From Alphaproteobacteria bacterium (GTDB lineage Bacteria; Pseudomonadota; Alphaproteobacteria; CAAGCB01; CAG-977), in NCBI GenBank assembly GCA_024413465.1, contig JAKSVU010000002.1, positions 75,063 through 139,062 of the forward strand: 64,000 bases of DNA, read 5' to 3'. The notes below the pieces were generated by a model. The model was not told the origin of the DNA and ran no database searches. It was given only the letters and a program-made list of their open reading frames with translations. Each line of letters opens with the position of its first letter. Within the stretch, counting starts at the first letter, position 1. Positions 178 through 40,315 of this stretch are shown here, piece after piece. The translations under genes and the position numbers were made by a program.

Positions 178-264
178 GATTTTATCAAAAAAAGTTGTAA
201 CCAAATTTAATAAAAATCGTTACACTAGTAGACAAGTAATTTTAATTTAGAAAAGGTTCTTTTT

Positions 265-2034
265 ATGGCTGATATATTAACGATGATAGTTTGTGATGCA
301 AATGGAAATGTGAAAACAAGTAAAGACGATAAAATTGTTACTAAGGATCAAGCAAAGGGATTTTATATTTTTTATGCTAAAAAGAATGTTGATGCCACAA
401 GTAAAAGCGAAATTATTTTGACTATGCCTGTTGGGGGAAATCAAAATGGGTTGTTCCGTTTGCCACACGTTGGTGAAAAAGTTTTAGTATCACAGCAGGG
501 AAATCAATTCTTTTTGATTGCTTATTTGCCAGATACGGAAACGATGGAATTTCGTGAAGAAAGTGCAGATGTAACAGAAGCAAATGAAATTAAAAATTCT
601 GAAGCTTTAATGTTACGCTATAAGTCTCCAAATGCTTTTCCTAAGGAAAATAAGGGGCGAAGTAAAAAGGGTATATCTGAAATTAAATTTTCTACACAGA
701 AAACATACTGGCCTGAAAAAAAGGATACGATTAAATCTGGTAAAACAGTCGATTTTCCAAGTGTTGACAGAATTGACGTTTCATCTTCAGGAGATGTTAT
801 TACTACGGCTCAAAATTATAATGAAATCAATGCTTCTCGCGTAGGGATTTTTGCTGGTGTTCAGAGTGATTTGAAAAAATTAAAAGATAAAGCAACAACA
901 CCGACTGGTGACGTTGCTACAAATGGATTAGAAATTTTACCTCAAGATATTCCAGATGAATTTCCAAGATTTTCTTTGGGGGACGTGCAAATCCGAGCAG
1001 ATAAAAAGATCATGTTGTCAGCTAAGTCAGGAATTATTTTAAGATGTGGTCGTTCTACGATTACTATTGATGATACGGGAATTTGTCTAAAATCTGGAAA
1101 AATTGCGTCAGCTTACCCGACACCAGATGATTCGTCTATTTCAATTACACCAAGATCGGGAGTTTCTATTTCAGGAGACTTTTTGGGGTTAAGTGCAAAT
1201 ATCAAATATTCCATTTCAGAAAGAATGGGAGGGTCAATTTCATCTTTAGCTGGTGTTACTCGAATCAATACTCATGATTTTAGGGTATCGACGAATGCTA
1301 CGATAGAATATGCAAATCAGTGTTTTTGGGCAGGAGCTAGGGGGGTCGAACAAGCTCTCACGTATGTTTCTACTATAACTGGTAAACATGCAGGAGTTGA
1401 TGGAGAAAATGCAGATCATGGTACAATTGTCAGAAATCTTTTAAAACAAGGTGATAAAGTTGCAATTGCAAATGATGTTTTACCGTTGTTGAATAGCTTG
1501 TTTATCGAAGGAAGTGACCATAGACTTAAGGCAGGTGATAGAAATCACAAGGCGGATGAGACAAGATTTAAGGATCCATGTAGTTCAATGATTTCTGTTG
1601 CAAATATTATTTTTTCTATCTTACCAATTGTTAATATGGTTCTTGACATGTCAGTTCCTATGGAAAAAAAGCAAAATAAAGCTTATGCTGAATCGATGAA
1701 TATGATCAATAGCGCCTTATCCTATTCCGTTCTTGCTTATTTGGCAACGACAATTTGTACAGCAACGGCAGGTATCCATTATAATGAATTTGCGTTAAAG
1801 GGAAGCGGAGATATTGATTTGATTTCCAAAAAAATTCAGAAAACAGTTGCAATGAGTACAAAGGGATATTCACCTGTTGCAGGTGTGGGGATAGATGCAA
1901 CACTTAATACTTGGTGGAAAAAAGCTCTTGCTATAGTAGTTGCTGGTGCAGCAGGTGGTGTTGCAATTTGGCAAATAGCAGAAACTTTGCTAAAAAGAGA
2001 CGTTGAAACAATGAAAGATTTGCAGGAGTTATAA
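265..2034 (+). CDS. N-terminally truncated VgrG/gp5-like spike protein with C-terminal hydrophobic (putative membrane-inserting) helices
   Basis: 589-aa ORF with RBS AAAAGG upstream. Residues ~55-90 (GLFRLPHVGEKVLVSQQGNQFFLIAYLPD) match the gp5/VgrG OB-fold motif (FRIPRIGEEVLVEF..G....P.I.G..YN). The following NKGRSKKGISEIKFSTQK resembles the VgrG segment after the OB-fold (NKTRSGIKSRSS..NELRFEDKKG). The middle has beta-helix-like short repeats. The C-terminal ~190 aa contains three hydrophobic 22-24-aa stretches. Confidence 0.55.
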   Translation: MADILTMIVCDANGNVKTSKDDKIVTKDQAKGFYIFYAKKNVDATSKSEIILTMPVGGNQNGLFRLPHVGEKVLVSQQGNQFFLIAYLPDTETMEFREESADVTEANEIKNSEALMLRYKSPNAFPKENKGRSKKGISEIKFSTQKTYWPEKKDTIKSGKTVDFPSVDRIDVSSSGDVITTAQNYNEINASRVGIFAGVQSDLKKLKDKATTPTGDVATNGLEILPQDIPDEFPRFSLGDVQIRADKKIMLSAKSGIILRCGRSTITIDDTGICLKSGKIASAYPTPDDSSISITPRSGVSISGDFLGLSANIKYSISERMGGSISSLAGVTRINTHDFRVSTNATIEYANQCFWAGARGVEQALTYVSTITGKHAGVDGENADHGTIVRNLLKQGDKVAIANDVLPLLNSLFIEGSDHRLKAGDRNHKADETRFKDPCSSMISVANIIFSILPIVNMVLDMSVPMEKKQNKAYAESMNMINSALSYSVLAYLATTICTATAGIHYNEFALKGSGDIDLISKKIQKTVAMSTKGYSPVAGVGIDATLNTWWKKALAIVVAGAAGGVAIWQIAETLLKRDVETMKDLQEL

Positions 2035-2037
2035 GCG

Positions 2038-2424
2038 ATGGATGATAAGACAAAAGATGCTTTTAAAGAAATGGTAATGCCTTTAATTACAGGTATTGGG
2101 ACGACTATTGCTGTTGGTGCTATTACTTCTGCTTTAACAAAATATTTGGTTACAAATTTTGAAGAAAAAGATGTGACAGGAGATCGAGAGGTAAAACCTA
2201 CGGATACGGAAACAACTGTTAATAAAGCTGAGGTTTCAGGAAATGAAACTGAAGGAAAGTTAGCAAAAGATGGCGTGAATGGAACTGAAGGCAAAATTAA
2301 AGCAAACGAAACAAAAGGAATTGCTTCGACAGCTGAAGCAACTGCTGCTGATGCTGGGGCTCAAGCATTGCGTACAAAAGCTGGTGCGATGGAAGTTAAA
2401 ACAAAAGGATTGGAAATCCAGTAA
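2038..2424 (+). CDS. small single-pass membrane protein with Thr/Glu/Gly/Lys-rich tail (possible immunity/accessory protein)
   Basis: ATG lies 4 nt after the upstream stop, with an AGGAG-like RBS (caggag). One hydrophobic helix (PLITGIGTTIAVGAITSAL) is followed by low-complexity ETEGK/TEGK repeats. Confidence 0.45.
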   Translation: MDDKTKDAFKEMVMPLITGIGTTIAVGAITSALTKYLVTNFEEKDVTGDREVKPTDTETTVNKAEVSGNETEGKLAKDGVNGTEGKIKANETKGIASTAEATAADAGAQALRTKAGAMEVKTKGLEIQ

Positions 2425-2492
2425 AAATATAGCATTTATATGTGTGATAAATATGATTTTTAGTGAATAAAAGAGGACGAGGAAAATATAAA

Positions 2493-3746
2493 ATGAGCGA
2501 TAAATTAGAATGGCGAAACAGACATTTTGCATTGCTGAGATGTAAAGATTTGAAAGATGCAGTTGATTCTGAAAAATATGTGTGTCGTCCTGATTTGAAA
2601 GATTTTTACAAGAAAAATTTAGTCGAAGACGTAATTTGGGATTTTGCGGATGCCGGACGATATAAATGTGCTACAGAATTAATGGGATACGTTGGTCATC
2701 ATCGGGCAGTAGTTTGGTGGGCATATCAATGTGCGTTATCTTTGATGGAAGAATTGGAAAAAAATCCAGCACCAACTGTCGATATTGATAATATTGGAAA
2801 ATCATTCGAGCCAGAAGTTCCTGATTTTGCCAAGGTTGAAATTCCTAAGATTACGCCGGAACAACAAGGTGAAATTGATAAAAATATGGCGAATTTAAAC
2901 CAAAAAGTTCAGGAATTGCGTGCAAAATGTGATCCAGAATTGTTGGGGATGGCTGATGAATTGATGGATACTTTTTATCAAGAATTTAAAAAAGTTCACG
3001 GGTATACACCACTTGAATTGATAGATTTAGCTGGAAAAAAATATAGGGAAGAAATTGAGCAAGGAAACGTTGATAGAAACAGTCCTATTTTTAAAGAGTG
3101 TGAAAAGATAAAAGCTCAACTTCAGAACGTTCGTAAGGAAACTTTAGATACGATTCATACAGTTCTCCCTCCTGAATTGCCAGAAGTGAAGAAAGAACAA
3201 TCTTTAAAAGCAATAAAATCTGTTTATAACTGGATTTTGGCTCCAGATGAAATTAACGCAAAAATCTGCTTAGATTGTGGAAATGCTTGTCCAGATGCTC
3301 CGGCTGGAATTTTGGCATATTGTGCATTTTGGGCTTGGGGAGATATGCTTCCTGGTGAAAAAACAGATGTCGTTGTTAAAACACCTGCAGGTTTAATGTC
3401 AAACGGGATATCTCAATTTTTGTTGATGTGTGCTTTGCATAAAGGAGGAACGCGTAAATTAAAAGAACGTTATGCCGAATATTTTAGATTAGGTGTTGAT
3501 GTTTTGACAGGCAGAAATCTTTGGGATGAAGCAGTGATTTCTGGGGAAGTTCCTCATGAAAAATTCCTTCAAGAAAATGAAAATTCAAATGGCGTAGAGG
3601 TTAAGAAAACTTCTCCTGTTCAAGCTGAAGTGAAAGAAAATGATAAAAAAGTGGATGAAAATTCTGATATAGATGATTTTGAACGGAAGGTTACTCAAGC
3701 TGGCTATAGAAAAGAGAAAAAATATACTCGTTGGAAACCAGAATAA
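2493..3746 (+). CDS. hypothetical protein (Cys-containing, no recognised family)
   Basis: The ORF is open from GTG 2463; ATG 2493 is preferred because of the RBS AAGAGGACGAGGA. It is the third gene of the same operon and is followed by the terminator at 3771-3807. Confidence 0.5.
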   Translation: MSDKLEWRNRHFALLRCKDLKDAVDSEKYVCRPDLKDFYKKNLVEDVIWDFADAGRYKCATELMGYVGHHRAVVWWAYQCALSLMEELEKNPAPTVDIDNIGKSFEPEVPDFAKVEIPKITPEQQGEIDKNMANLNQKVQELRAKCDPELLGMADELMDTFYQEFKKVHGYTPLELIDLAGKKYREEIEQGNVDRNSPIFKECEKIKAQLQNVRKETLDTIHTVLPPELPEVKKEQSLKAIKSVYNWILAPDEINAKICLDCGNACPDAPAGILAYCAFWAWGDMLPGEKTDVVVKTPAGLMSNGISQFLLMCALHKGGTRKLKERYAEYFRLGVDVLTGRNLWDEAVISGEVPHEKFLQENENSNGVEVKKTSPVQAEVKENDKKVDENSDIDDFERKVTQAGYRKEKKYTRWKPE

Positions 3747-3770
3747 TTAGAGGGTAGTCGTTTTTATTGT

Positions 3771-3807
3771 AAGGGGAGTCTGAAATTACAGATTCCCCTT
3801 CTTTTTT
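3771..3807 (+). terminator. Rho-independent terminator
   Basis: Hairpin aaggggagtctg/cagattcccctt followed by the T-run cttttttg. Confidence 0.6.
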
Positions 3808-7149: not shown

Positions 7150-7344
7150 ATGAACGATAATACAGAAATTTTATTAAAAGATGAAGAACGCCAGCCTTGT
7201 GAAGTTTGGACAAGGGTAATGGGATATTTTCGTCCAATGTCAGAATATAATTATGGTAAAAAAAGTGAATTTGCTGAACGCCGTTATTTTAAACAAGATT
7301 TGGCAATGGAAAAAATTTGTAGTTGCCATCAAGCTGCAGAATAA
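7150..7344 (+). CDS. stand-alone NrdD C-terminal glycyl-radical-domain-like mini-protein (64 aa)
   Basis: TRVMGYFRPMSEYNYGKKSEFAERRYF matches the class III RNR glycyl radical motif RVCGYLGSP..FNAGKQ.EV..R. It is flanked by Cys residues (C17, C58, C60). A terminator follows directly. Confidence 0.55.
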   Translation: MNDNTEILLKDEERQPCEVWTRVMGYFRPMSEYNYGKKSEFAERRYFKQDLAMEKICSCHQAAE

Positions 7345-7395: not shown

Positions 7396-7496
7396 TTAAG
7401 GGCAAAATATGCCTAGTTTGATGTGATATTAACTTTTTTTTAAATGAATCAAGATAAGCTGACTGTATATCTATGGATGACAGAAGGAATCAGGTT

Positions 7497-10400
7497 ATGC
7501 GAATAAAAAAGAATTGGAAATTTGCTGGATTGTTAATGCTTTCAACGGCATTGATGCCTGTTCCTGGATATACAAGTGCTACATTGGAAATTTCAAGCCA
7601 ACCCTTAGGGAATCAATACGTTGATGAGCGAACGGCCACGAATGATGTCGAAATTACATCCACTGGAGATATTAAGTTTAATTCAAGTTTTAAGGAACTT
7701 TGGTCATATTACAGTTATGTCACGAATGAGACAGGAGAAGTTTCTTTTGAAAGAATAGGTGACACAGTGACATATACACCTGAACAAGTTCAAAGTGCAC
7801 CGCAAGATTATAAAGGTGATATTGTTTTTAGTAGTAGCGGAAAATTTTCAGATTCGGATGATGCTGGGATACGAATTTACAAAGGGTTAGATGTTTTAGA
7901 GATTGGGCAAAGTGAAATTCAGACGCCGGGGAATATAATTATTCAAGCAGGAACTTTTAATTTTACTCAAAAACAAGGTGAGATTCTGTTAAGAAGATCT
8001 GCTAGTGGTAATTTTACGATTAATGGGGGAAAATTTGTTGTTGGAGAACATGGTAAAGCTCTCATCGGTCAAAAGTTTTATTCTGATGGTGGTTTTGGGA
8101 AAACAAGTACTAAACTTTTTATTAACTCAGGAACTTTAGATATTGCAGCTGGAGGAATTTTACAATTTAGTGGATATAACGTTCAATATGGAGGCGGTTC
8201 TACTAATAAAGTTATGATAACAGATTCTTCTGCGGGAATTTTATCCTTTATTGGGGGAAATAGTGAGTCAGCTAAAACCATAGATATTAAAGATTCAATT
8301 GATTTAAGCCAAGGGGAATTGAATTTATATTCTGGAAATATGATTTTAAATGCTGATGTAACCGTTAAAAAATTTAGTTTTGGAGATACAACGGATGTTG
8401 ACGCTACAATTTTAGGAATTAAAACTCCAGAAGGACAAATTTTGAACGTTGATAAAAGTCATCATCTGACAGTTTCTGAAGATTTTGTTATGAAATCAAA
8501 TTCTCATCTAATTGGTGATGGTGTTCTTTCACTAGAACATGGAGCGAGTGCGACTTTTGGTATTTTGGATTTTGGAACGATTTCAGTAAGTGGTCAAAAT
8601 GGAAGTGATGTCTATGGAACAATCACTTTTATGGGGGCAGCCAATTTGATTAATTTGGAAGCTGAGGGGTCAAAAATTCAAAATAATTCTAATTTAACAG
8701 TTGAAAATTTGACTTTAAAAGCAAATGGGGCTGATAAATCTGAACTTACTTTGGCAAAGGCTGATGAAGGTGGAACTGCATATTTGTATATAGACCATTT
8801 TGATATTGAAGGTGGAACGGTTGTATTTAATCAAGATAGTCAATTGTACATTAGGAAAGATGCGATAATTAATGAATTGACAACGATAAATGGAAAAGGA
8901 ACAATTAATTTTACCAGTGATCCTAGCAAGGAAACAGGTGTTTTAGAATTTAAAGATTCCGTTGAAAATTCAACAAAAACTATTTCAATTGCGGAAACAA
9001 TTAATTTAGTTGTTGGTAATGGAGGAACCGTAGATTTTAATTTATCAAATGGTTTGACTGGTTTTAATCTTGTAAGTGTAGAAGATGGACTGCTAAAGGT
9101 CTCTCAATCAGAAAATATAATACATAAACTTGTTTTGGGACAGGCAGCTTCTTCGAAATCTTTTGTGCTACAAGTTGCAGAAGGAGCTACTTTAAATTTT
9201 GATAAATATGCGTATATTTATCCTGGTGCTCAGCTGAATATTGATGGAACGTTATCCATTAATGGAACGACAGATGAAGGGGAATATGTTGTTTCTGGTA
9301 AATCATCAACGATAGCTGCTGCAAAGGGAACTGAAACAAATGTGGTTGGTTCTGGAACTTTACAATTAATTGGTAAGATCACTTCAAATGCATCCTATAA
9401 CATTGAAAATCTTGTTATTGGTGATGGAACAACGACGACGGTTACGCATGATACAAGAGGAACTTCTTCTTCAGATTGGTCAAGTCAACATTTCGCTCAA
9501 AATTTAACAGTCAATGCAAATGCAATTTTAAACATTGACGGTGGTGAATTGGATACAGCAGGATTAAGTGGTGATGGGACAATAGTTATCAATACAAATG
9601 GAATTTTAGGGGTTGATTCTACTTCAGAATTAACAGGCGTTGGTTCAATTTCAGGTGATGGAACGTTAAAATTATTAAACGCTACAAATATGACATTGTT
9701 AGCAGATTCATCGTCTTCTTTAAAGGTTTCAATCGGAACTGGAACTTTAACAATTGGAACGGATGGTTCAACATCAAATACAAAGTTTGGTTCATTGTCA
9801 TTTAATGATTCTGCGAATGGTGGTTCTGTTGTTATCAATGATGGAAGTTCACTTTCATTGGGCTCAATTAATGTTTCTGGGAAATCAAGTTTAATTGGAA
9901 AAGGGAGTTTATATTTAGCAACAGCTCCAGCAGATTATGGAAAAATTTCCTATATTTCTGGTGGGGGAAATTTAGATTTCAATAAAATTGAAATTACTTA
10001 TGGTGGTTTAATTGTTTCTAGATCAGGAAAAATTGAAGATTTAACTACAATCGGTTTACAAGTTTCTGGATCAGGAACGTTATTGAATGTTAATAAAATA
10101 ACGGCTGATGGAAATTCTGGGGGGATTGGTCTTACAGATGGGGCGTCACTTCAAGTTGAAAAATTTATGACTTCAAGTACTGTTGTTGGAACTGGAACGT
10201 TAGTGGCGGGAGAAGGACAATTTGATTCACATGCAGTTTCTGATTTTATGGGGTATGCTTATCCTGTGTTAGATACGCTAGATAAATCTTTGTCAGGAAT
10301 ATTGACTGTTCAGGGTGAGATAAATAATGTTCGTGTAACTCAAGGAACATTAGAAATAGAGGGAACTAATCATTTTTATGCGAGTGAGTTGACAAAGTTA

Positions 10401-13400
10401 GGTTTGACTGTTCAAAATATTGATGTTTTAAGTGGAGAATTAAAGAATTCATCTAATGGCGGAGAAGGGTTAATAGTTTCTAATTCTGGACATTTTGGGA
10501 ATGGAACAATTGGTGGATTAAGTAAATTAACTGCAGCTAATAATGATGTTAGATTCACATTTGATGGTACAAATACCCTTGTAAGTTATGATATGAATAA
10601 TACGAATTCTGTTGTTCAGATTAATCAAGGGGGAACCTTAAATTTAAAAGATTGGTCAAATGAAACGACTGATCATAAGTTTATAGGGGCAGGAACTTTA
10701 TCTGTGCAAAAGGATTCAGGAGAATTAAAGTCCACAATTGAAAATTTAGGTGTGTTAGAAATTAATGCTTCTTCCTTTACGTTATCGTCACAATTGAATA
10801 ATTTGGGTGAATTAGATTTAGAACAAGGTGGTACAACAATTGCTTCAAATGGAACTGTTGGAACTTTAGTAATTGATCAATCTTCAACAATTGTTAATGG
10901 AACACTTACAATTACGAATAAACTAGACGTTCAAGAAGATACTTCAGGTACAGGTACGTTCATTATTCAATCTGGTTCTGCTGATTTTGGTGCTAACTTT
11001 GCAGGTAATTTAGAAATTGGTTCTGTTGCAAATATCAAAGAGAATATTTCACTTGGAAATGTTACATTCTCTTCAAGTAACGGTGGAACATTGAATATTG
11101 AAGAAGGAAAAACGTTAACTTTGAGTTCTTTGACAACAAGTGGAAGAAACGTTGTTAATGGTGCAGGTGTTTTAGCTGTTAGTGGTTCAGGATCAAGTTT
11201 TGGTGCTCCAATCAATGGATTAGGAAAGTTAGATTTAAAAACGTCTAGTTCAGATGCTACTTTTAATCGAAGTGCAAATATTTCAGAAATTTCATTTGCC
11301 GGAGGTAGTTCAGTTACAGTAAATTCTGGATATACGTTGACTGTATCGACGTTGTCAGGAACAGGAACTCCGAGTGTCCAGGGAGCTGGAACGTTTTCTT
11401 TTGATGGTAATACAAGTGAGTCAGATTTGAACGTTGGTAGTGGATTAGGAACGTTAAACGTTATTTCTGGTAAAATAAAAATAGTTGAAGACGGAACAAT
11501 CGGAAACGTGTCTTTGTCTATGGGTAATTTAGCTGTTGCAGATGGTAAGACTTTGACGGTAAATAACATAGATGGAGCAGGTGAATTATCTGCTGAGGGA
11601 AGTTATTCTGCTAAGTTAGTTCTTAACAATTCTGCAAATTTTGTAAAGAACGTTTCTAACTTTAATACGATTATGTCAACGGGAAGAACTGTTTTTCAGA
11701 ATGGAATTGATGTTACAAACTTGAATATAGCTTCAGGAATGACTTCAATTAATGGAACTTCAAATACAATTGGAACGCTAACAATTGATGGAACTTTGGA
11801 TATTGGTGGGTATCAAAAAGTAAATGCTACAAATGTTACCTTTAATCCAGGTTCTTCCTTAAATTTGAATATTAATCCAGAATCGCTAGCTTTAGGGCAA
11901 ATTCAATCTTCAAATGTAACAATTAATCCTAATGTAGCTTTAAATTTGAATATCGGATATGGTGTGAAAAAGGATGGGATGGAATTCCGAGTTGTTGATG
12001 GCGGTGTTCCTAATGGTGAATTTTCAGTGGTTTCAAATAATCGCTATAATTTGACAAATACAAATTGTTCAGGTGGCTTGTGTTATAAAATTGTTCAGAC
12101 TGCAACAGGGGAAGAAGTTGTAAATCAGTCTGGAGGAAGTAACAATGATGCTGCAGTTGCAAGGGCTGTTTTAGATAGTGAAATTTTCAAACCAACAGAT
12201 AGATTCTACCCAGTTGCGGTACGATTGTATGATTTGTCTTTATATGGAAGTGCCAAGGAATATCGTGATGCTTTGACAACAGTTGCACCTGATGTGACAG
12301 GATCTGCGATGAAGCAATCTATTGACGTCCAATCACAAATCACAAATATTGCTTTTTCAAGATTACAACGGTTGGGGAGTAATTTAGGATCAAGAGCAAC
12401 AAATTATGGTTATAAAAAAGCCTATGGACATGCAGGTGGTAATTACTATAAATATCGTGGTAATTCTAGAAGTTCGTACAGAAGTAGTGATTTAGGTGAT
12501 ATCAAAAAATATAAGCGAAACAATGAATATGAATATTATCGTGTAAAACCGACTACCGTCCAAAAGTATGATGCTAGAAAGTATAATCGTTATCAAGATG
12601 TAACACCTACAACAGGAAAAGTAGAAACTTCGGTTGCTCCAAATTATCAAAAGTATTATGGAGCTTCATCTTCGGATCCAAAACGTTATGAAAGATTTAA
12701 AAATTCCTATGGTGTGTATGAAAATAATGAACGTTTAGATTCTACAGATCCGAAGAAATATTCTCGTTCTCGTGATACCATTTTATATCAACAAGAAAAA
12801 ACACAAACTGTTTTGACTCCGGAAAAGAAGTATCAGCGTAAGATTTTACAGCCATCATCAAATGGAACGGTTGTTGCAGATTCTATGAAATATAAACATA
12901 CAGGATATCAACCTTTCCAAAATAGACTTGATTTTGGCGTATGGGCAGAAGGTTTCTTCAATACAAACGAATATAAAAATGAAAATGATCCAGATGGGTT
13001 CTCTTCGGATACAACCGGATTTGCAACAGGTATGGATATCTCATTTCTTGATATGTTTGCATTCGGCGTTGGGTATTCAAATTCACAAACAGATTTGAAG
13101 ACGTTGAATCGTAAGACTGACGTTAATGGAAATACGTTCTTTATGTATGGTATGGTTAAGCCTAATAATTTCTACGTCAGTGGATTCTTGGGCTTTACAT
13201 CAAATGAATATAAAGAACATAAGAAGATTAAAGGCATTAAAGAAATCGAAGATAATTATGATGGTAGTTCAGTCGGAGCTCAGATTAATATTGGTTATGA
13301 TTTAGGACAATGGCATCCAGAAGTTGGTGTTCGCTATACCAATGCAAAATTTGATGCAAGAACTGATTCTGTTGGTCAAAAGGTTGATTCATACAGTGGT

Positions 13401-13718
13401 ACCGTTGGTACGGCATTGGCAAATGTAACATATGAGACGGATTTACGTAGAACTGATTCCGATGTTGTTTCTGCTGATTTTAGCGTAGGAGTTTCTTATG
13501 ATTTCAAAACAGCAAAACAAAAAAATACTGTTGCTTTAGAAAATGGATCAAGTTATACCGTTGAAGGAGCTTCTTTGGATAAGTTTGGTATTGAAGCCGG
13601 AGCTGGTATTTCATATAAGGCAAATGATCACGTTGAATTTCGTGCTGAATATGATTGCGATTATAAAAAAGATTTCATATCACATTCTTTGAAAGCACAT
13701 GTTCGTTATAACTTTTAA
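7497..13718 (+). CDS. giant classical (type Va) autotransporter with beta-helical passenger and C-terminal beta-barrel
   Basis: The ORF opens at 7473. ATG 7497 is preferred (RBS AGGAA; signal peptide MRIKKNWKFAGLLMLSTALMPVPGYTSA). There are ~1600 aa of Gly/Thr/Ser/Asn-rich pseudo-repeats (GTL, NGT, LxV), then a Y/K-rich linker. The last ~300 aa have alternating hydrophobic beta-strand patterning and end in the aromatic residue ...RYNF. Confidence 0.85.
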   Translation: MRIKKNWKFAGLLMLSTALMPVPGYTSATLEISSQPLGNQYVDERTATNDVEITSTGDIKFNSSFKELWSYYSYVTNETGEVSFERIGDTVTYTPEQVQSAPQDYKGDIVFSSSGKFSDSDDAGIRIYKGLDVLEIGQSEIQTPGNIIIQAGTFNFTQKQGEILLRRSASGNFTINGGKFVVGEHGKALIGQKFYSDGGFGKTSTKLFINSGTLDIAAGGILQFSGYNVQYGGGSTNKVMITDSSAGILSFIGGNSESAKTIDIKDSIDLSQGELNLYSGNMILNADVTVKKFSFGDTTDVDATILGIKTPEGQILNVDKSHHLTVSEDFVMKSNSHLIGDGVLSLEHGASATFGILDFGTISVSGQNGSDVYGTITFMGAANLINLEAEGSKIQNNSNLTVENLTLKANGADKSELTLAKADEGGTAYLYIDHFDIEGGTVVFNQDSQLYIRKDAIINELTTINGKGTINFTSDPSKETGVLEFKDSVENSTKTISIAETINLVVGNGGTVDFNLSNGLTGFNLVSVEDGLLKVSQSENIIHKLVLGQAASSKSFVLQVAEGATLNFDKYAYIYPGAQLNIDGTLSINGTTDEGEYVVSGKSSTIAAAKGTETNVVGSGTLQLIGKITSNASYNIENLVIGDGTTTTVTHDTRGTSSSDWSSQHFAQNLTVNANAILNIDGGELDTAGLSGDGTIVINTNGILGVDSTSELTGVGSISGDGTLKLLNATNMTLLADSSSSLKVSIGTGTLTIGTDGSTSNTKFGSLSFNDSANGGSVVINDGSSLSLGSINVSGKSSLIGKGSLYLATAPADYGKISYISGGGNLDFNKIEITYGGLIVSRSGKIEDLTTIGLQVSGSGTLLNVNKITADGNSGGIGLTDGASLQVEKFMTSSTVVGTGTLVAGEGQFDSHAVSDFMGYAYPVLDTLDKSLSGILTVQGEINNVRVTQGTLEIEGTNHFYASELTKLGLTVQNIDVLSGELKNSSNGGEGLIVSNSGHFGNGTIGGLSKLTAANNDVRFTFDGTNTLVSYDMNNTNSVVQINQGGTLNLKDWSNETTDHKFIGAGTLSVQKDSGELKSTIENLGVLEINASSFTLSSQLNNLGELDLEQGGTTIASNGTVGTLVIDQSSTIVNGTLTITNKLDVQEDTSGTGTFIIQSGSADFGANFAGNLEIGSVANIKENISLGNVTFSSSNGGTLNIEEGKTLTLSSLTTSGRNVVNGAGVLAVSGSGSSFGAPINGLGKLDLKTSSSDATFNRSANISEISFAGGSSVTVNSGYTLTVSTLSGTGTPSVQGAGTFSFDGNTSESDLNVGSGLGTLNVISGKIKIVEDGTIGNVSLSMGNLAVADGKTLTVNNIDGAGELSAEGSYSAKLVLNNSANFVKNVSNFNTIMSTGRTVFQNGIDVTNLNIASGMTSINGTSNTIGTLTIDGTLDIGGYQKVNATNVTFNPGSSLNLNINPESLALGQIQSSNVTINPNVALNLNIGYGVKKDGMEFRVVDGGVPNGEFSVVSNNRYNLTNTNCSGGLCYKIVQTATGEEVVNQSGGSNNDAAVARAVLDSEIFKPTDRFYPVAVRLYDLSLYGSAKEYRDALTTVAPDVTGSAMKQSIDVQSQITNIAFSRLQRLGSNLGSRATNYGYKKAYGHAGGNYYKYRGNSRSSYRSSDLGDIKKYKRNNEYEYYRVKPTTVQKYDARKYNRYQDVTPTTGKVETSVAPNYQKYYGASSSDPKRYERFKNSYGVYENNERLDSTDPKKYSRSRDTILYQQEKTQTVLTPEKKYQRKILQPSSNGTVVADSMKYKHTGYQPFQNRLDFGVWAEGFFNTNEYKNENDPDGFSSDTTGFATGMDISFLDMFAFGVGYSNSQTDLKTLNRKTDVNGNTFFMYGMVKPNNFYVSGFLGFTSNEYKEHKKIKGIKEIEDNYDGSSVGAQINIGYDLGQWHPEVGVRYTNAKFDARTDSVGQKVDSYSGTVGTALANVTYETDLRRTDSDVVSADFSVGVSYDFKTAKQKNTVALENGSSYTVEGASLDKFGIEAGAGISYKANDHVEFRAEYDCDYKKDFISHSLKAHVRYNF

Positions 13719-39211: not shown

Positions 39212-40315
39212 TTATCTGTTGTTTAACTTGTTTTGTAAAGCTTGTTGCATTGCTACGGATTTTTTTGAATCTCTCGTTGTTTTAGGGGCAGATCTAGATC
39301 CGGCACATATCATTGCAGAAGGATCATTTTCTATATTATCAAAAGTTTTTTTGTTTTCAGTCGAATACATTTTCATATAAGACTTGTCTTCTTTTGAAAA
39401 CAAGAAATGAGAACGGAAATTTTTCTCAATCATTTTAATTGATTCAAAACCAGCAGGAGAAAGTGATAGAGCTTCTGGAGAAGTCAAATAATCAGCATCA
39501 ATTTTTTTATTTAATCCTGGTGTTATGAAAATTTTATCTAACACGTCTTGGTTTGATATTTGCCCACGCAAAGAATCAGATTGAGTAAAATTTTGCTCTC
39601 TACCTTTTAAACCATACTTAATCGCATAAATATGATCTTTTTCATAAGATTGTTGATAGTGAGGATAGTTATACCATTCTTTGAAAGCTTTCTCACTTGC
39701 TTTATCCAAATCTCCAGATTCACTCATTTCTTTATCAAAAACTTGATACATTGGGAATTGAGCAACATGGGACAAAACTTCAGGATATTTATCTTTTATT
39801 TGATAAGCAAAACGAGCTTCTTCAGTCCAAGCTGCAGCTTCACAAGCACGATTAAATTTGAATTGGTCTGCAATATTTAATGAAGATGAATCACTTAATA
39901 ATTGATTTGAATCTGTATCTTGAACAGCATGAACCATTTCATGAAATGCAGTCGCAGCCATTCCTGCTATACTAGAATGTTGGCAAGGACATAACATAAT
40001 TCTTTTATTTCCACCAGACATTGATCCATCAGCATCACCACCATAAGCATTAAACGTAAATTTAAAGCCGGCAGCAGCAACTCTATCAATCAAATCTTTG
40101 CCTGCAGGAACGGAAGAAATAACATCAAATACCTGTTTTAATTGTTCTTTTTCAACTTCTTGAGGATCGCGAACATTTCTAACAGTTCTAGAAACATAAC
40201 CTGCCGTCAAAACGTTTTCAAAAGCAACCTTTAAAGTTCCTTCCATATCTTGACGATTAGGAACAGGTTGTTCGACTTCTTTTTTCTTTCCGAATATATC
40301 TGACAAGAAAGACAT
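39212..40315 (-). CDS. HExxHxxQD zincin-like (DUF4157-like) protein, paralog 2 (367 aa)
   Basis: GGNKRIMLCPCQHSSIAGMAATAFHEMVHAVQD. The RBS is AAGGA. Confidence 0.55.
   Translation of the reverse strand: MSFLSDIFGKKKEVEQPVPNRQDMEGTLKVAFENVLTAGYVSRTVRNVRDPQEVEKEQLKQVFDVISSVPAGKDLIDRVAAAGFKFTFNAYGGDADGSMSGGNKRIMLCPCQHSSIAGMAATAFHEMVHAVQDTDSNQLLSDSSSLNIADQFKFNRACEAAAWTEEARFAYQIKDKYPEVLSHVAQFPMYQVFDKEMSESGDLDKASEKAFKEWYNYPHYQQSYEKDHIYAIKYGLKGREQNFTQSDSLRGQISNQDVLDKIFITPGLNKKIDADYLTSPEALSLSPAGFESIKMIEKNFRSHFLFSKEDKSYMKMYSTENKKTFDNIENDPSAMICAGSRSAPKTTRDSKKSVAMQQALQNKLNNR

What the first reader, a model, noticed from the sequence alone, without database searches (positions are those of the whole stretch)
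265..3807. Orphan operon led by an N-terminally truncated VgrG/gp5-like spike protein with a hydrophobic C-terminal domain
The first gene (265-2034) starts almost directly with the gp5/VgrG OB-fold (GLFRLPHVGEKVLVSQQGNQFFLIAYLPD). It continues with the post-OB segment typical of VgrG (NKGRSKKGISEIKF) and beta-helix-like repeats, but it lacks the ~370-aa gp27-like hub domain of canonical VgrG. In place of the usual C-terminus it ends in ~190 aa with three 22-24-aa hydrophobic helices (1465-2034), reminiscent of pore-forming or membrane-targeting C-terminal extensions of evolved spikes. It is co-transcribed with a single-pass membrane protein carrying TEGK-type low-complexity repeats (a possible immunity or chaperone-like partner) and an unknown 417-aa Cys-containing protein (annotated 2493-3746), and the unit is closed by a clean terminator. 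No sheath, tube, baseplate, Hcp or TssM genes occur in the window, and the flanks are housekeeping genes (a PfkB kinase and xseB-ispA-dxs). This could be a cargo module for a contractile system encoded elsewhere, a decayed remnant, or a spike-derived toxin repurposed for another export route.
Basis: partly seen in the sequence, partly recalled or inferred. Interest (0 to 1): 0.7.

Follow-up and report, generated by a model that had tools for sequence, protein, structure and literature searches.

The report
Stray spike module of a T6SS
These three genes are a spare, swappable tip for a bacterial "poison spear" (a type VI secretion system) that is encoded elsewhere in the same genome; it belongs to a little-known lineage of gut bacteria in which the spear tip is built from two separate proteins and always travels with two uncharacterised partner proteins.

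Summary
Genes 265-2034, 2038-2424 and 2493-3746 form one unit, closed by a terminator at 3771-3807 and flanked by housekeeping genes. Gene 1 is a gp5-type spike (OB-fold plus beta-helix) without a gp27 hub. It ends in an all-alpha domain with two strongly and one moderately hydrophobic helices.

It is not a truncated VgrG. In about 30 T6SS clusters from gut Alphaproteobacteria and termite-gut Treponema the order is ClpV, PAAR, separate gp27-like hub, then 1-4 copies of [gp5-like, ~130-aa protein, DUF6931], then TssK-TssL-TssM. A rare fused relative aligns hub and gene 1 end to end. The window's triplet is a dispersed copy of that module.

The same MAG encodes TssK three genes from another DUF6931 paralog on a different contig. 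All three genes are under purifying selection (dN/dS 0.22, 0.06, 0.09), so this is not a relic.

Among paralogs, the spike's C-terminal domain and the small protein's hydrophobic N-terminus diverge fast and in parallel. The small protein's tail and DUF6931 stay nearly constant.

Best reading: an auxiliary T6SS spike-effector module with a membrane-active warhead, a cognate small membrane partner and a conserved DUF6931 accessory. The roles of genes 2 and 3 are inferred. It is a new variant of a known kind.

The parts
178..264 (+). AT-rich intergenic region upstream of gene 1; presumed promoter region (not demonstrated)
   Evidence: Sequence read. The consensus scan found no strong sigma-70 match here.
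265..2034 (+). Gene 1 (MJ250_01905, MCQ2965478.1), 589 aa: stand-alone gp5-like T6SS spike protein with a C-terminal helical hydrophobic domain
   Evidence: ORF and identity. Family Pfam hits. Context in about 30 T6SS clusters. Only 351 relatives among 1.84e9 representatives, nearly all starting at residue 1.
265..534 (+). Residues 1-90: N-terminal OB-fold (five predicted beta-strands) that would plug into a gp27-like hub
   Evidence: Phage_base_V match at residues 52-80; 39 of 52 family members hit this model. Strands 3-10, 34-39, 48-52, 72-78 and 81-88 in the AF2 model, pLDDT 70-80. Residue 1 aligns to residue 421 of the fused relative P0288, directly after its hub part.
757..1269 (+). Residues ~165-335: beta-rich region, the spike beta-helix
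1297..2031 (+). Residues ~345-589: all-alpha C-terminal domain (CTD), the fast-evolving putative membrane-active warhead
   Evidence: Helices 345-375, 385-410, 438-463, 472-504 and 550-588. dN/dS 0.34 against 0.18 for the core. Only 22-43% identity among paralogs. In some clusters it is encoded as a separate ORF.
1588..1644 (+). Hydrophobic helix 1 (residues 442-460, MISVANIIFSILPIVNMVL)
   Evidence: Kyte-Doolittle 19-mer mean 2.15. A recurrent strong peak at the equivalent position in relatives.
1702..1776 (+). Moderately hydrophobic helix 2 (residues 480-504)
   Evidence: Kyte-Doolittle 1.29.
1924..1980 (+). Hydrophobic helix 3 (residues 554-572, ALAIVVAGAAGGVAIWQIA) with a small-xxx-small motif
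   Evidence: Kyte-Doolittle 1.94. Motif AIVVAGAAG at residue 556, and family-level enrichment z 3.8.
2017..2031 (+). C-terminal motif DLQEL-COOH (family consensus ...ELxxL-COOH)
   Evidence: Present at the end of most fused CTDs; stand-alone CTD proteins keep the terminal Leu, usually preceded by an acidic residue.
2038..2424 (+). Gene 2 (MJ250_01910, MCQ2965479.1), 128 aa: small protein with a variable N-terminal hydrophobic helix (residues 12-30, nt 2071-2127) and a highly conserved T/E/G/K-rich tail (residues ~46-128, nt 2173-2421)
   Evidence: Always follows a gp5-like gene. Among paralogs the N-terminal 45 aa are 26-53% identical while the tail is mostly 65-90% (one outlier pair in L002 at 22%). 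No Pfam or PDB relatives.
2493..3746 (+). Gene 3 (MJ250_01915, MCQ2965480.1), 417 aa: DUF6931 protein, soluble and all-alpha (Pfam domain at residues 233-337, nt 3189-3503)
   Evidence: PF22011 at 60 bits against a cut-off of 27. 301 homologs, all carrying PF22011. AF2 pLDDT 80.7. No hydrophobic segment. dN/dS 0.086.
3771..3807 (+). Intrinsic terminator closing the unit
   Evidence: 12-bp stem with 6 G-C pairs, a 6-nt loop and a T-run.

Best explanation
The locus is an auxiliary ('orphan') spike-effector module of a type VI secretion system whose structural genes lie elsewhere in the same genome.

Shown:
- Gene 1 belongs to a small family of stand-alone gp5-like spike proteins (OB-fold plus beta-helix).
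- In every main cluster of this T6SS lineage, that family sits directly after a separately encoded gp27-like hub and a PAAR gene.
- It is always accompanied by a ~130-aa protein (the gene 2 family) and a DUF6931 protein (the gene 3 family).
- The window's MAG encodes TssK of this lineage next to another DUF6931 paralog.
- The three genes are under purifying selection.

Inferred:
- Three copies of gene 1 insert their N-terminal OB-folds into a trimer of the hub protein made from the main cluster. PAAR sharpens the tip. This makes an alternative spike that is fired by the sheath.
- The fast-evolving, helical, hydrophobic C-terminal domain is the payload and acts on a target membrane as a pore or depolariser.
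- Gene 2 is its cognate partner. Its hydrophobic N-terminus diverges in step with the CTD. It is most likely a membrane immunity protein, or alternatively a co-delivered helix.
- The nearly invariant tail of gene 2 and the invariant cytoplasmic DUF6931 protein form a constant handle or chaperone. This would keep the hydrophobic helices soluble and load the module on the machine, possibly by recognising the conserved ...ELxxL C-terminus.
For: Spike identity:
- Pfam/NCBIfam hits to Phage_base_V, DUF2345 and Francisella TssI in gene 1.
- 39 of 52 family members hit Phage_base_V and 20 of 52 hit DUF2345.
- The top profile hits in the PDB are all puncturing spikes.
- The fused relative P0288 aligns to the hub at residues 21-375 and to gene 1 from residue 421.

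T6SS membership of the module:
- L002.
- About 30 loci ordered ClpV, PAAR, hub, [gp5-like, small, DUF6931] x1-4, p204, TssK, TssL, TssM.
- TssE, TssF, TssG, the PAAR motif and a stand-alone Phage_GPD hub confirmed by Pfam.

A machine in the same genome:
- TssK MCQ2966215.1 and DUF6931 MJ250_05725 (MCQ2966218.1) are on the same 55,042-bp contig of the MAG.
- An independent sample (ERR11637135) holds both the syntenic orphan locus (L006) and a T6SS contig whose TssK is at least 90% identical to the MAG's (L051).

The module is functional:
- dN/dS against the 71%-identical relative (L006) is 0.22 for gene 1, 0.056 for gene 2 and 0.086 for gene 3, at dS of about 1.
- Synteny is conserved.

Payload and partner:
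- Hydrophobic helices in the CTD.
- An all-alpha CTD.
- The CTD and the gene 2 N-terminus diverge in parallel, while the gene 2 tail and DUF6931 are constant.
- Small-xxx-small motifs are enriched in both hydrophobic parts.
- DUF6931 lacks any hydrophobic segment.
- Other orphan copies sit among housekeeping genes in other genomes: L001/L021, L003/L025, L009 and L050.
Against: - Gene 1's own domain hits are below the Pfam thresholds, and its AF2 model is poor (pLDDT 46.7). The fold assignment therefore rests on family-level statistics and gene context.
- No hub or PAAR gene accompanies the orphan copy.
- The 55-kb T6SS contig is linked to the window only through MAG binning. I could not read that contig.
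- No toxic activity, secretion or interaction has been tested for any family member.
- Gene 2's tail and DUF6931 are far more conserved than typical immunity proteins. Every main cluster carries this module, so it could be structural rather than a toxin.
- About a third of family members, mostly those with a split or different C-terminus, have no strongly hydrophobic segment.
Confidence: 0.8

Rival explanations
1. A purely structural alternative spike. The CTD, the small protein and DUF6931 are lineage-specific assembly or anchoring parts of the machine, for example tethering the spike to the membrane complex or nucleating the baseplate. They are not a toxin with its partners, and the orphan copies are spare structural parts.
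For: Every main cluster contains at least one copy of the whole module directly after the hub, and clusters with a single copy have no other spike. The gene 2 tail and DUF6931 are mostly 65-90% identical among paralogs and 45-65% across phyla.
Against: Tandem amplification to 2-4 copies and dispersal of orphan copies is the behaviour of polymorphic effectors. So is the rapid, parallel divergence confined to the CTD and the gene 2 N-terminus. Structural parts are rarely kept as 3 or more divergent paralogs per genome.
Confidence: 0.12
2. The T6SS module is the same, but the roles are swapped. DUF6931 is the immunity protein, as annotated for Pseudovibrio and as suggested by its SsdAI-like fold. 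It would act against a CTD that works in the cytoplasm. Gene 2 would be an adaptor or a co-effector.
Confidence: 0.1
3. A decaying remnant of a lost T6SS or prophage tail, no longer functional.
For: The locus is isolated among housekeeping genes, with no hub, PAAR or structural genes within 64 kb.
Against: The ORFs are intact and dN/dS is 0.06-0.22 at dS of about 1. The position is conserved in 97% and 71% relatives. T6SS genes are present in the same MAG. There are no phage or plasmid relatives.
Confidence: 0.02
4. A spike-derived membrane toxin that has become independent of the T6SS, for example released by lysis, vesicles or another secretion route.
For: Several genomes of this lineage carry multiple orphan triplets. 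In the Horse_feces366 MAG, only orphan copies were found by the genome scan.
Against: The N-terminal OB-fold and beta-helix, which are needed only for mounting on a hub and firing, are conserved under purifying selection. The window's MAG does encode the T6SS. The genome scan relied on two exact peptide patterns and on incomplete MAGs, so absence in Horse_feces366 is weak evidence.
Confidence: 0.04

Closest known systems
Canonical T6SS spike VgrG (TssI), including 'evolved' VgrGs with C-terminal effector domains (own knowledge: V. cholerae VgrG-1 and VgrG-3, Burkholderia VgrG-5)
   Same: A gp5-type OB-fold followed by a beta-helix (Phage_base_V and DUF2345 signals). It is encoded beside PAAR in T6SS clusters. 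A C-terminal extension beyond the helix serves as a presumed payload.
   Different: There is no gp27-like (Phage_GPD) domain in the polypeptide. The hub is a separate ~410-aa gene in all 21 loci where it was seen. Sequence is so diverged that an exhaustive HMMER search returns only 351 representatives instead of the thousands of canonical VgrGs. It is always followed by the gene 2 and DUF6931 families.
Phage T4 cell-puncturing device, gp27 plus gp5 (own knowledge; outlined in PMC5924787)
   Same: The hub (gp27-like) and the spike (gp5-like, OB-fold plus beta-helix) are separate polypeptides encoded by adjacent genes, often with overlapping stop and start codons.
   Different: There is no lysozyme domain, and a hydrophobic helical C-terminal domain is present instead. 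The context is a T6SS (TssE, F, G, K, L, M and ClpV), not a phage. No phage relatives were found.
Francisella T6SS-ii spike: 164-aa VgrG plus PdpA (PMC5924787)
   Same: It is a precedent for a T6SS whose spike lacks the gp27-like head, which another protein supplies. Gene 1 gives a weak hit to the Francisella TssI model (E 9e-4).
   Different: Francisella VgrG is reported to lack the OB-fold as well, and PdpA is not a Phage_GPD protein. Here the split lies between the gp27 and gp5 parts, and the hub is a bona fide Phage_GPD protein. The score of 19 bits is far below the model cut-off of 100.
Orphan or auxiliary vgrG-effector-immunity islands of T6SS-i (own knowledge: V. cholerae auxiliary clusters, P. 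aeruginosa vgrG islands)
   Same: A spike gene with accessory genes lies far from the main cluster among unrelated genes, and serves a machine encoded elsewhere.
   Different: The accessory genes are not a variable effector, adaptor and immunity set. They are the same two families (gene 2 and DUF6931) in every copy, and the variable part is the spike's own C-terminal domain.
Membrane-depolarising T6SS effectors with small membrane immunity proteins (own knowledge: Tse4/Tsi4, Ssp6/Sip6, VasX/TsiV2), and Eag/DUF1795 chaperones for effector transmembrane helices (own knowledge)
   Same: There are hydrophobic, small-residue-rich helices in the payload, an adjacent small protein with one hydrophobic helix, and a soluble conserved accessory that could shield the helices before firing.
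   Different: There is no sequence or profile similarity to any of these families. The resemblance is functional analogy only.
SsdAI (immunity to the T6SS deaminase SsdA; PDB 7jtu_B) and DUF416

Membership tests
Canonical VgrG / TssI | N-terminal gp27-like hub domain (Pfam Phage_GPD) in the same polypeptide | tested here: not met
   No Phage_GPD hit in gene 1. Matches of the family profile start at residue ~1 of nearly all relatives. The hub is a separate gene in 21 loci.
Canonical VgrG / TssI | gp5-type OB-fold (Pfam Phage_base_V) | tested here: met
   Gene 1 scores E 0.008 (17 bits, below the gathering score of 23.8), but 39 of 52 family members match, best E 1e-6, and L014's copy reaches the gathering score. 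Five beta-strands are predicted in residues 1-90.
Canonical VgrG / TssI | C-terminal triple-stranded beta-helix (DUF2345 / T6SS_Vgr) | tested here: inconclusive
   DUF2345 at E 0.003 in gene 1; 20 of 52 members match, best E 1e-5. Weak PDB profile hits to spikes. The AF2 model is too poor to show the helix.
Canonical VgrG / TssI | Encoded with, and used by, T6SS core genes | tested here: met
   The family sits between PAAR/hub and TssK-L-M in about 30 clusters. TssK is present in the same MAG. Actual use by the machine is not testable here.
Phage T4-type two-piece gp27/gp5 device | Hub and spike as separate adjacent genes | tested here: met
   (a gap of -4 to +213 nt between hub stop and spike start). 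The fused relative P0288 shows colinearity.
Phage T4-type two-piece gp27/gp5 device | Lysozyme domain in gp5; phage genomic context | tested here: not met
   No lysozyme family hit. No PHROG hit. No match in 50,697 phage records.
Francisella-type TssI (NCBIfam NF041249) | Score above the equivalog cut-off (100 bits) | tested here: not met
   19.2 bits, E 9e-4, covering only residues 241-317.
DUF6931 (Pfam PF22011), gene 3 | Score above the gathering threshold (27 bits) | tested here: met
   60 bits, E 3.6e-16. All 84 aligned homologs match.
SsdAI / DUF416-like immunity proteins, gene 3 | Shared fold at a convincing level, and a cognate toxin that it neutralises | tested here: inconclusive
Known T6SS chaperones and adaptors (Eag/DUF1795, Tap-Tec/DUF4123, DUF2169), genes 2 and 3 | Sequence membership in one of these Pfam families | tested here: not met
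   No such hits for gene 2 or gene 3, or for their families. Any chaperone role would be by analogy.
T6SS effector-immunity pair (CTD of gene 1 with gene 2) | Toxic activity of the effector domain and specific neutralisation by the adjacent gene | not testable with these tools
   Only indirect evidence is available: parallel divergence of the CTD and the gene 2 N-terminus, and hydrophobic helices.

The most novel reading that the evidence does not exclude
A whole T6SS lineage, found in gut Alphaproteobacteria, termite-gut spirochaetes and a Deferribacteraceae MAG, uses a phage-like two-piece spike whose gp5 half is itself the polymorphic weapon. A swappable hydrophobic C-terminal domain would insert into target membranes together with, or be countered by, a co-varying one-helix protein. 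DUF6931 would be a previously unrecognised, lineage-universal class of T6SS chaperone or loader that recognises constant handles: the conserved tail of the small protein and the ...ELxxL C-terminus of the spike. On this reading the spike module, not separate cargo effectors, is the primary effector system, and the orphan triplets are an exchangeable arsenal.
Probability: 0.3. Interest if true: 0.75.

Novelty: new variant of a known kind. Interest (0 to 1): 0.55.

Why it matters
Auxiliary vgrG islands are a familiar concept, so the locus itself is not a new kind of thing. The comparative work it triggered does reveal something apparently undescribed, with three parts.

First, a coherent T6SS lineage in animal-gut and termite-gut bacteria builds its spike from two gene products, as in phage T4.

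Second, two protein families without any assigned function (DUF6931 and a ~130-aa family absent from Pfam) are as universal in that lineage as the core genes.

Third, the variable, presumably membrane-active part sits on the spike itself and co-varies with just the hydrophobic helix of its neighbour.

This gives DUF6931 a concrete, testable role. It also offers a compact three-gene system for studying how hydrophobic payloads are carried on a T6SS spike.

Tried and rejected
- **Single-sequence search of gene 1 against PDB sequences:** only a chance hit to midasin.
- **PHROGs for all three proteins:** nothing meaningful.
- **Reaching the MAG's other contigs:** The look-up of encoding contigs on MJ250_05725, MJ250_07220 and the MAG's TssK returned only gene-length catalogue records or no DNA. 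The T6SS cluster of the MAG could therefore not be read directly. Its presence rests on accession adjacency and a shared contig length, plus the relative's contig L051.
- **Genome collection:** it does not hold the MJ250 MAG.
- **afdb50 fold library:** unavailable.
- **Profile searches of the DUF6931 and gene 2 families against PDB sequences and Pfam:** no informative relatives.
- **Literature searches:** one passing mention of DUF6931, and no description of this split-spike lineage or of a T6SS in termite Treponema.
- **Prophage or plasmid origin:** rejected, as there was no match in either collection.
- **TssB, TssC, Hcp and TssA of the lineage:** not seen, because the fetched flanks stop at TssE.

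Full report
**Observation.** Homologs of gene 3 all begin M[SA]DKL[ED]W, so its start is ATG 2493, giving 417 aa. The genes are 3 and 68 nt apart. They are followed by a strong intrinsic terminator, with a 12-bp stem at 3771-3800 and a T-run to about 3807.

The window comes from an NCBI MAG labelled 'Alphaproteobacteria bacterium'. The genes are MJ250_01905, 01910 and 01915 (MCQ2965478 to MCQ2965480) on a 173,711-bp contig. The flanks are PfkB on one side and xseB-ispA-dxs on the other. No T6SS structural gene occurs in the 64 kb. tblastn with ClpV, PAAR, hub, TssK, TssL and TssM was negative, and Pfam on 20 further ORFs of suitable size gave only housekeeping families.

**Gene 1 is a gp5-like spike.** On its own it gives only sub-threshold hits:
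- Phage_base_V at residues 52-80 (E 0.008)
- DUF2345 at residues 239-277 (E 0.003)
- the Francisella TssI model at residues 241-317 (E 9e-4)

It gives no Phage_GPD hit. At family level the assignment is solid. Of 52 relatives, 39 hit Phage_base_V (best E 1e-6) and 20 hit DUF2345. L014's copy reaches the Pfam gathering score. The best PDB matches of the family profile are all puncturing spikes: the Anabaena CIS spike All3320, phiKZ gp164 and a Vgr beta-helix fragment.

Kyte-Doolittle scanning confirms two strongly hydrophobic segments, at 442-460 (2.15) and 554-572 (1.94), and a moderate one at 480-504 (1.29).

**The module belongs to a T6SS lineage with a two-piece spike.** Gene 1 has few relatives: 8 in the word-indexed search and 351 representatives among 1.84 billion in the exhaustive search. 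Its neighbours are constant, however. A ~130-aa protein and a DUF6931 protein follow it in an Alphaproteobacteria MAG, in a Spirochaetaceae MAG and in a metagenome contig (L002), where three such triplets sit inside a T6SS cluster.

A scan of species-representative genomes with a DUF6931 alignment returned 41 loci. They come from horse, rumen and human gut Alphaproteobacteria MAGs, from termite-gut Treponema and Spirochaetaceae MAGs, and from one Deferribacteraceae MAG. Mapping them with L002's proteins shows one architecture in about 30 loci:

ClpV, PAAR, a ~410-aa hub, then 1-4 copies of [gp5-like, small protein, DUF6931], then p204, TssK, TssL, TssM.

Pfam confirms TssE, TssF and TssG upstream, the PAAR motif, and a stand-alone Phage_GPD hub covering positions 1-296 of the 305-position model.

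In all 21 loci where it was seen, the hub is a separate gene, whose stop lies from 4 nt inside to 213 nt before the spike gene's start. So the split is not an assembly artefact. Nearly all matches of the family profile begin at residue ~1 of the target. One rare relative, P0288 (919 aa), is fused. Its residues 21-375 align to the hub, and residues 421-779 align to gene 1 residues 1-385. Gene 1 is therefore the native gp5 half of a two-piece VgrG, not a truncated VgrG.

**The same genome has the machine.** The DUF6931 search showed two further paralogs in the MJ250 MAG: MJ250_05725 on a 55,042-bp contig and MJ250_07220, which is cut by a contig end. A TssK search followed by cluster look-up found TssK MCQ2966215.1 on a 55,042-bp contig of an Alphaproteobacteria MAG. 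That is three accession numbers from MJ250_05725 (MCQ2966218.1).

I could not read that contig. A Logan contig whose TssK is at least 90% identical (L051) carries p204, TssK, TssL and TssM followed by housekeeping genes. It comes from the same sample that holds the syntenic 71%-identical copy of the window's locus (L006) and another orphan triplet (L050). Orphan triplets among housekeeping genes also occur in the Horse_feces366 MAG (twice) and in a Spirochaetaceae MAG.

**The module is maintained by selection.** Against the 71% relative, at dS of about 1:

| Gene | dN/dS |
|---|---|
| gene 1 (whole) | 0.22 |
| gene 1 core | 0.18 |
| gene 1 CTD | 0.34 |
| gene 2 | 0.056 |
| gene 3 | 0.086 |
| xseB (neighbour) | 0.046 |

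. The position between PfkB and xseB is conserved in 97% and 71% relatives. This excludes a decaying remnant.

**Genes 2 and 3.** The gene 2 family (49 sequences) has a hydrophobic N-terminal helix in 46 of 49 members. Its tail is strikingly conserved (...ETEGKLAKD.V.A..G..KA.ETEA...ALRTKAGASDIE.KALKMT). The family has no Pfam or PDB relatives.

**A pattern that constrains the mechanism.** Identities among paralogous triplets within one cluster:

| Part | Identity among paralogs |
|---|---|
| gp5 core | 41-71% |
| CTD | 22-43% |
| first 45 residues of the small protein | 26-53%, rising and falling with the CTD |
| small protein's tail | 65-90% in nine of ten pairs (22% in the L002 pair) |
| DUF6931 | 66-82% in nine of ten pairs (48% in the L002 pair) |

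In some clusters the CTD is a separate ~150-370-aa ORF. Most fused CTDs end in ...ELxxL-COOH, and the free-standing CTD proteins keep the terminal Leu, usually after an acidic residue. Small-xxx-small motifs are enriched in the small protein's N-terminus (z about 11) and in the CTD (z about 3.8), but not in control regions. The z-values are inflated because the sequences are related.

**Most likely mechanism.** The following steps are shown: membership of a T6SS spike module, presence of the T6SS in the same MAG, and purifying selection.

The following steps are inferred:
- Gene 1 trimerises and plugs its OB-folds into the hub trimer made from the main cluster. It is capped by PAAR and fired.
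- Its variable hydrophobic CTD is the payload and acts on a target membrane.
- Gene 2's variable helix is the CTD's cognate partner, either immunity in the producer's membrane or a co-delivered helix.
- Gene 2's constant tail and the constant cytoplasmic DUF6931 protein form a chaperone or loading handle.

I put about 0.8 on the T6SS auxiliary-spike reading as a whole, and about 0.4-0.5 on the specific roles of genes 2 and 3.

**Rivals.**
- A purely structural module. Its universality in the lineage argues for this. Amplification, dispersal and localised rapid divergence argue against it.
- DUF6931 as the immunity protein. The SsdAI-like fold argues for it. The lack of co-variation with the CTD and the lack of any envelope targeting argue against it.
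- A relic. Selection contradicts this.
- T6SS-independent use. This is unnecessary given, and it is hard to reconcile with conservation of the OB-fold.
- Phage or plasmid origin. No matches were found.

**Comparison with known systems.** The module works like an 'evolved' VgrG in an auxiliary vgrG island, but it fails the defining gp27-domain test for canonical VgrG. Its gene organisation matches the T4 gp27/gp5 pair, without the lysozyme domain and without a phage context. Francisella offers a precedent for a T6SS spike whose head is supplied by another protein (PMC5924787). There the split point and the head protein are different, and gene 1 scores only 19 of the required 100 bits on the Francisella model. 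Analogies to Tse4-, Ssp6- and VasX-type membrane effectors and to Eag chaperones rest on my own knowledge and on function only. No sequence relationship was found.

**Novelty and interest.** The locus is an instance of a known concept, an orphan spike-effector island. The lineage it belongs to appears undescribed: a two-piece spike, universal DUF6931 and small-protein partners, and a polymorphic CTD that co-varies with one helix of its neighbour. I rate it a new variant of a known kind, with interest 0.55.

Noticed in passing
window 7150-7344 (+): A stand-alone 64-aa ORF resembling the C-terminal glycyl-radical segment of anaerobic ribonucleotide reductase NrdD (motif TRVMGYFRP). PF13597 is recorded on the ortholog in L004. 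It sits between dxs and a giant autotransporter and could be a 'spare part' protein.
   Followed up: no
window 7473-13718 (+): A 2081-aa autotransporter (PF03797 on the L004 ortholog) with long low-complexity passenger repeats, immediately downstream of the housekeeping block.
   Followed up: no
window 39212-40315 (-); L050 6168-8338: A DUF6782 putative metallopeptidase gene occurs in the window. Two DUF6782 genes directly follow another orphan spike triplet in a relative (L050). This may be coincidence or a loose association.
   Followed up: partly
L019 (CAVCSV010000011.1): A contig titled Limosilactobacillus gorillae carries a complete Gram-negative T6SS cluster, with the same gene sizes as the UBA6411 alphaproteobacterial locus L024. 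This is almost certainly bin contamination.
   Followed up: no
L051 start; MJ250_07220 (P0034): Assemblies tend to break at DUF6931 paralogs. L051's contig ends 891 nt upstream of TssK, and MJ250_07220 is cut by a contig end. Copy numbers of the triplet in MAGs are therefore probably underestimated.
   Followed up: partly
L027 5306-6136; L030 4985-6624; L044 39-4444: Three variants of the module were seen: a 276-aa DUF6931 fragment between PAAR and hub (L027); the order gp5-like, DUF6931, small protein (L030); and a Deferribacteraceae locus with hub, DUF6931, gp5-like and TssL but no detected small gene (L044).
   Followed up: no
L002 592-879 and 4122-4412: There are two PAAR-like genes in one cluster, one before the first gp5-like paralog and one before the hub. 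L043 also has a PAAR gene directly before a gp5-like gene. This suggests that some extra spikes bring their own tip.
   Followed up: no
window 1836-2294 (-): A 152-aa antisense ORF overlaps the end of gene 1 and the start of gene 2. It has no support and is probably spurious.
   Followed up: no
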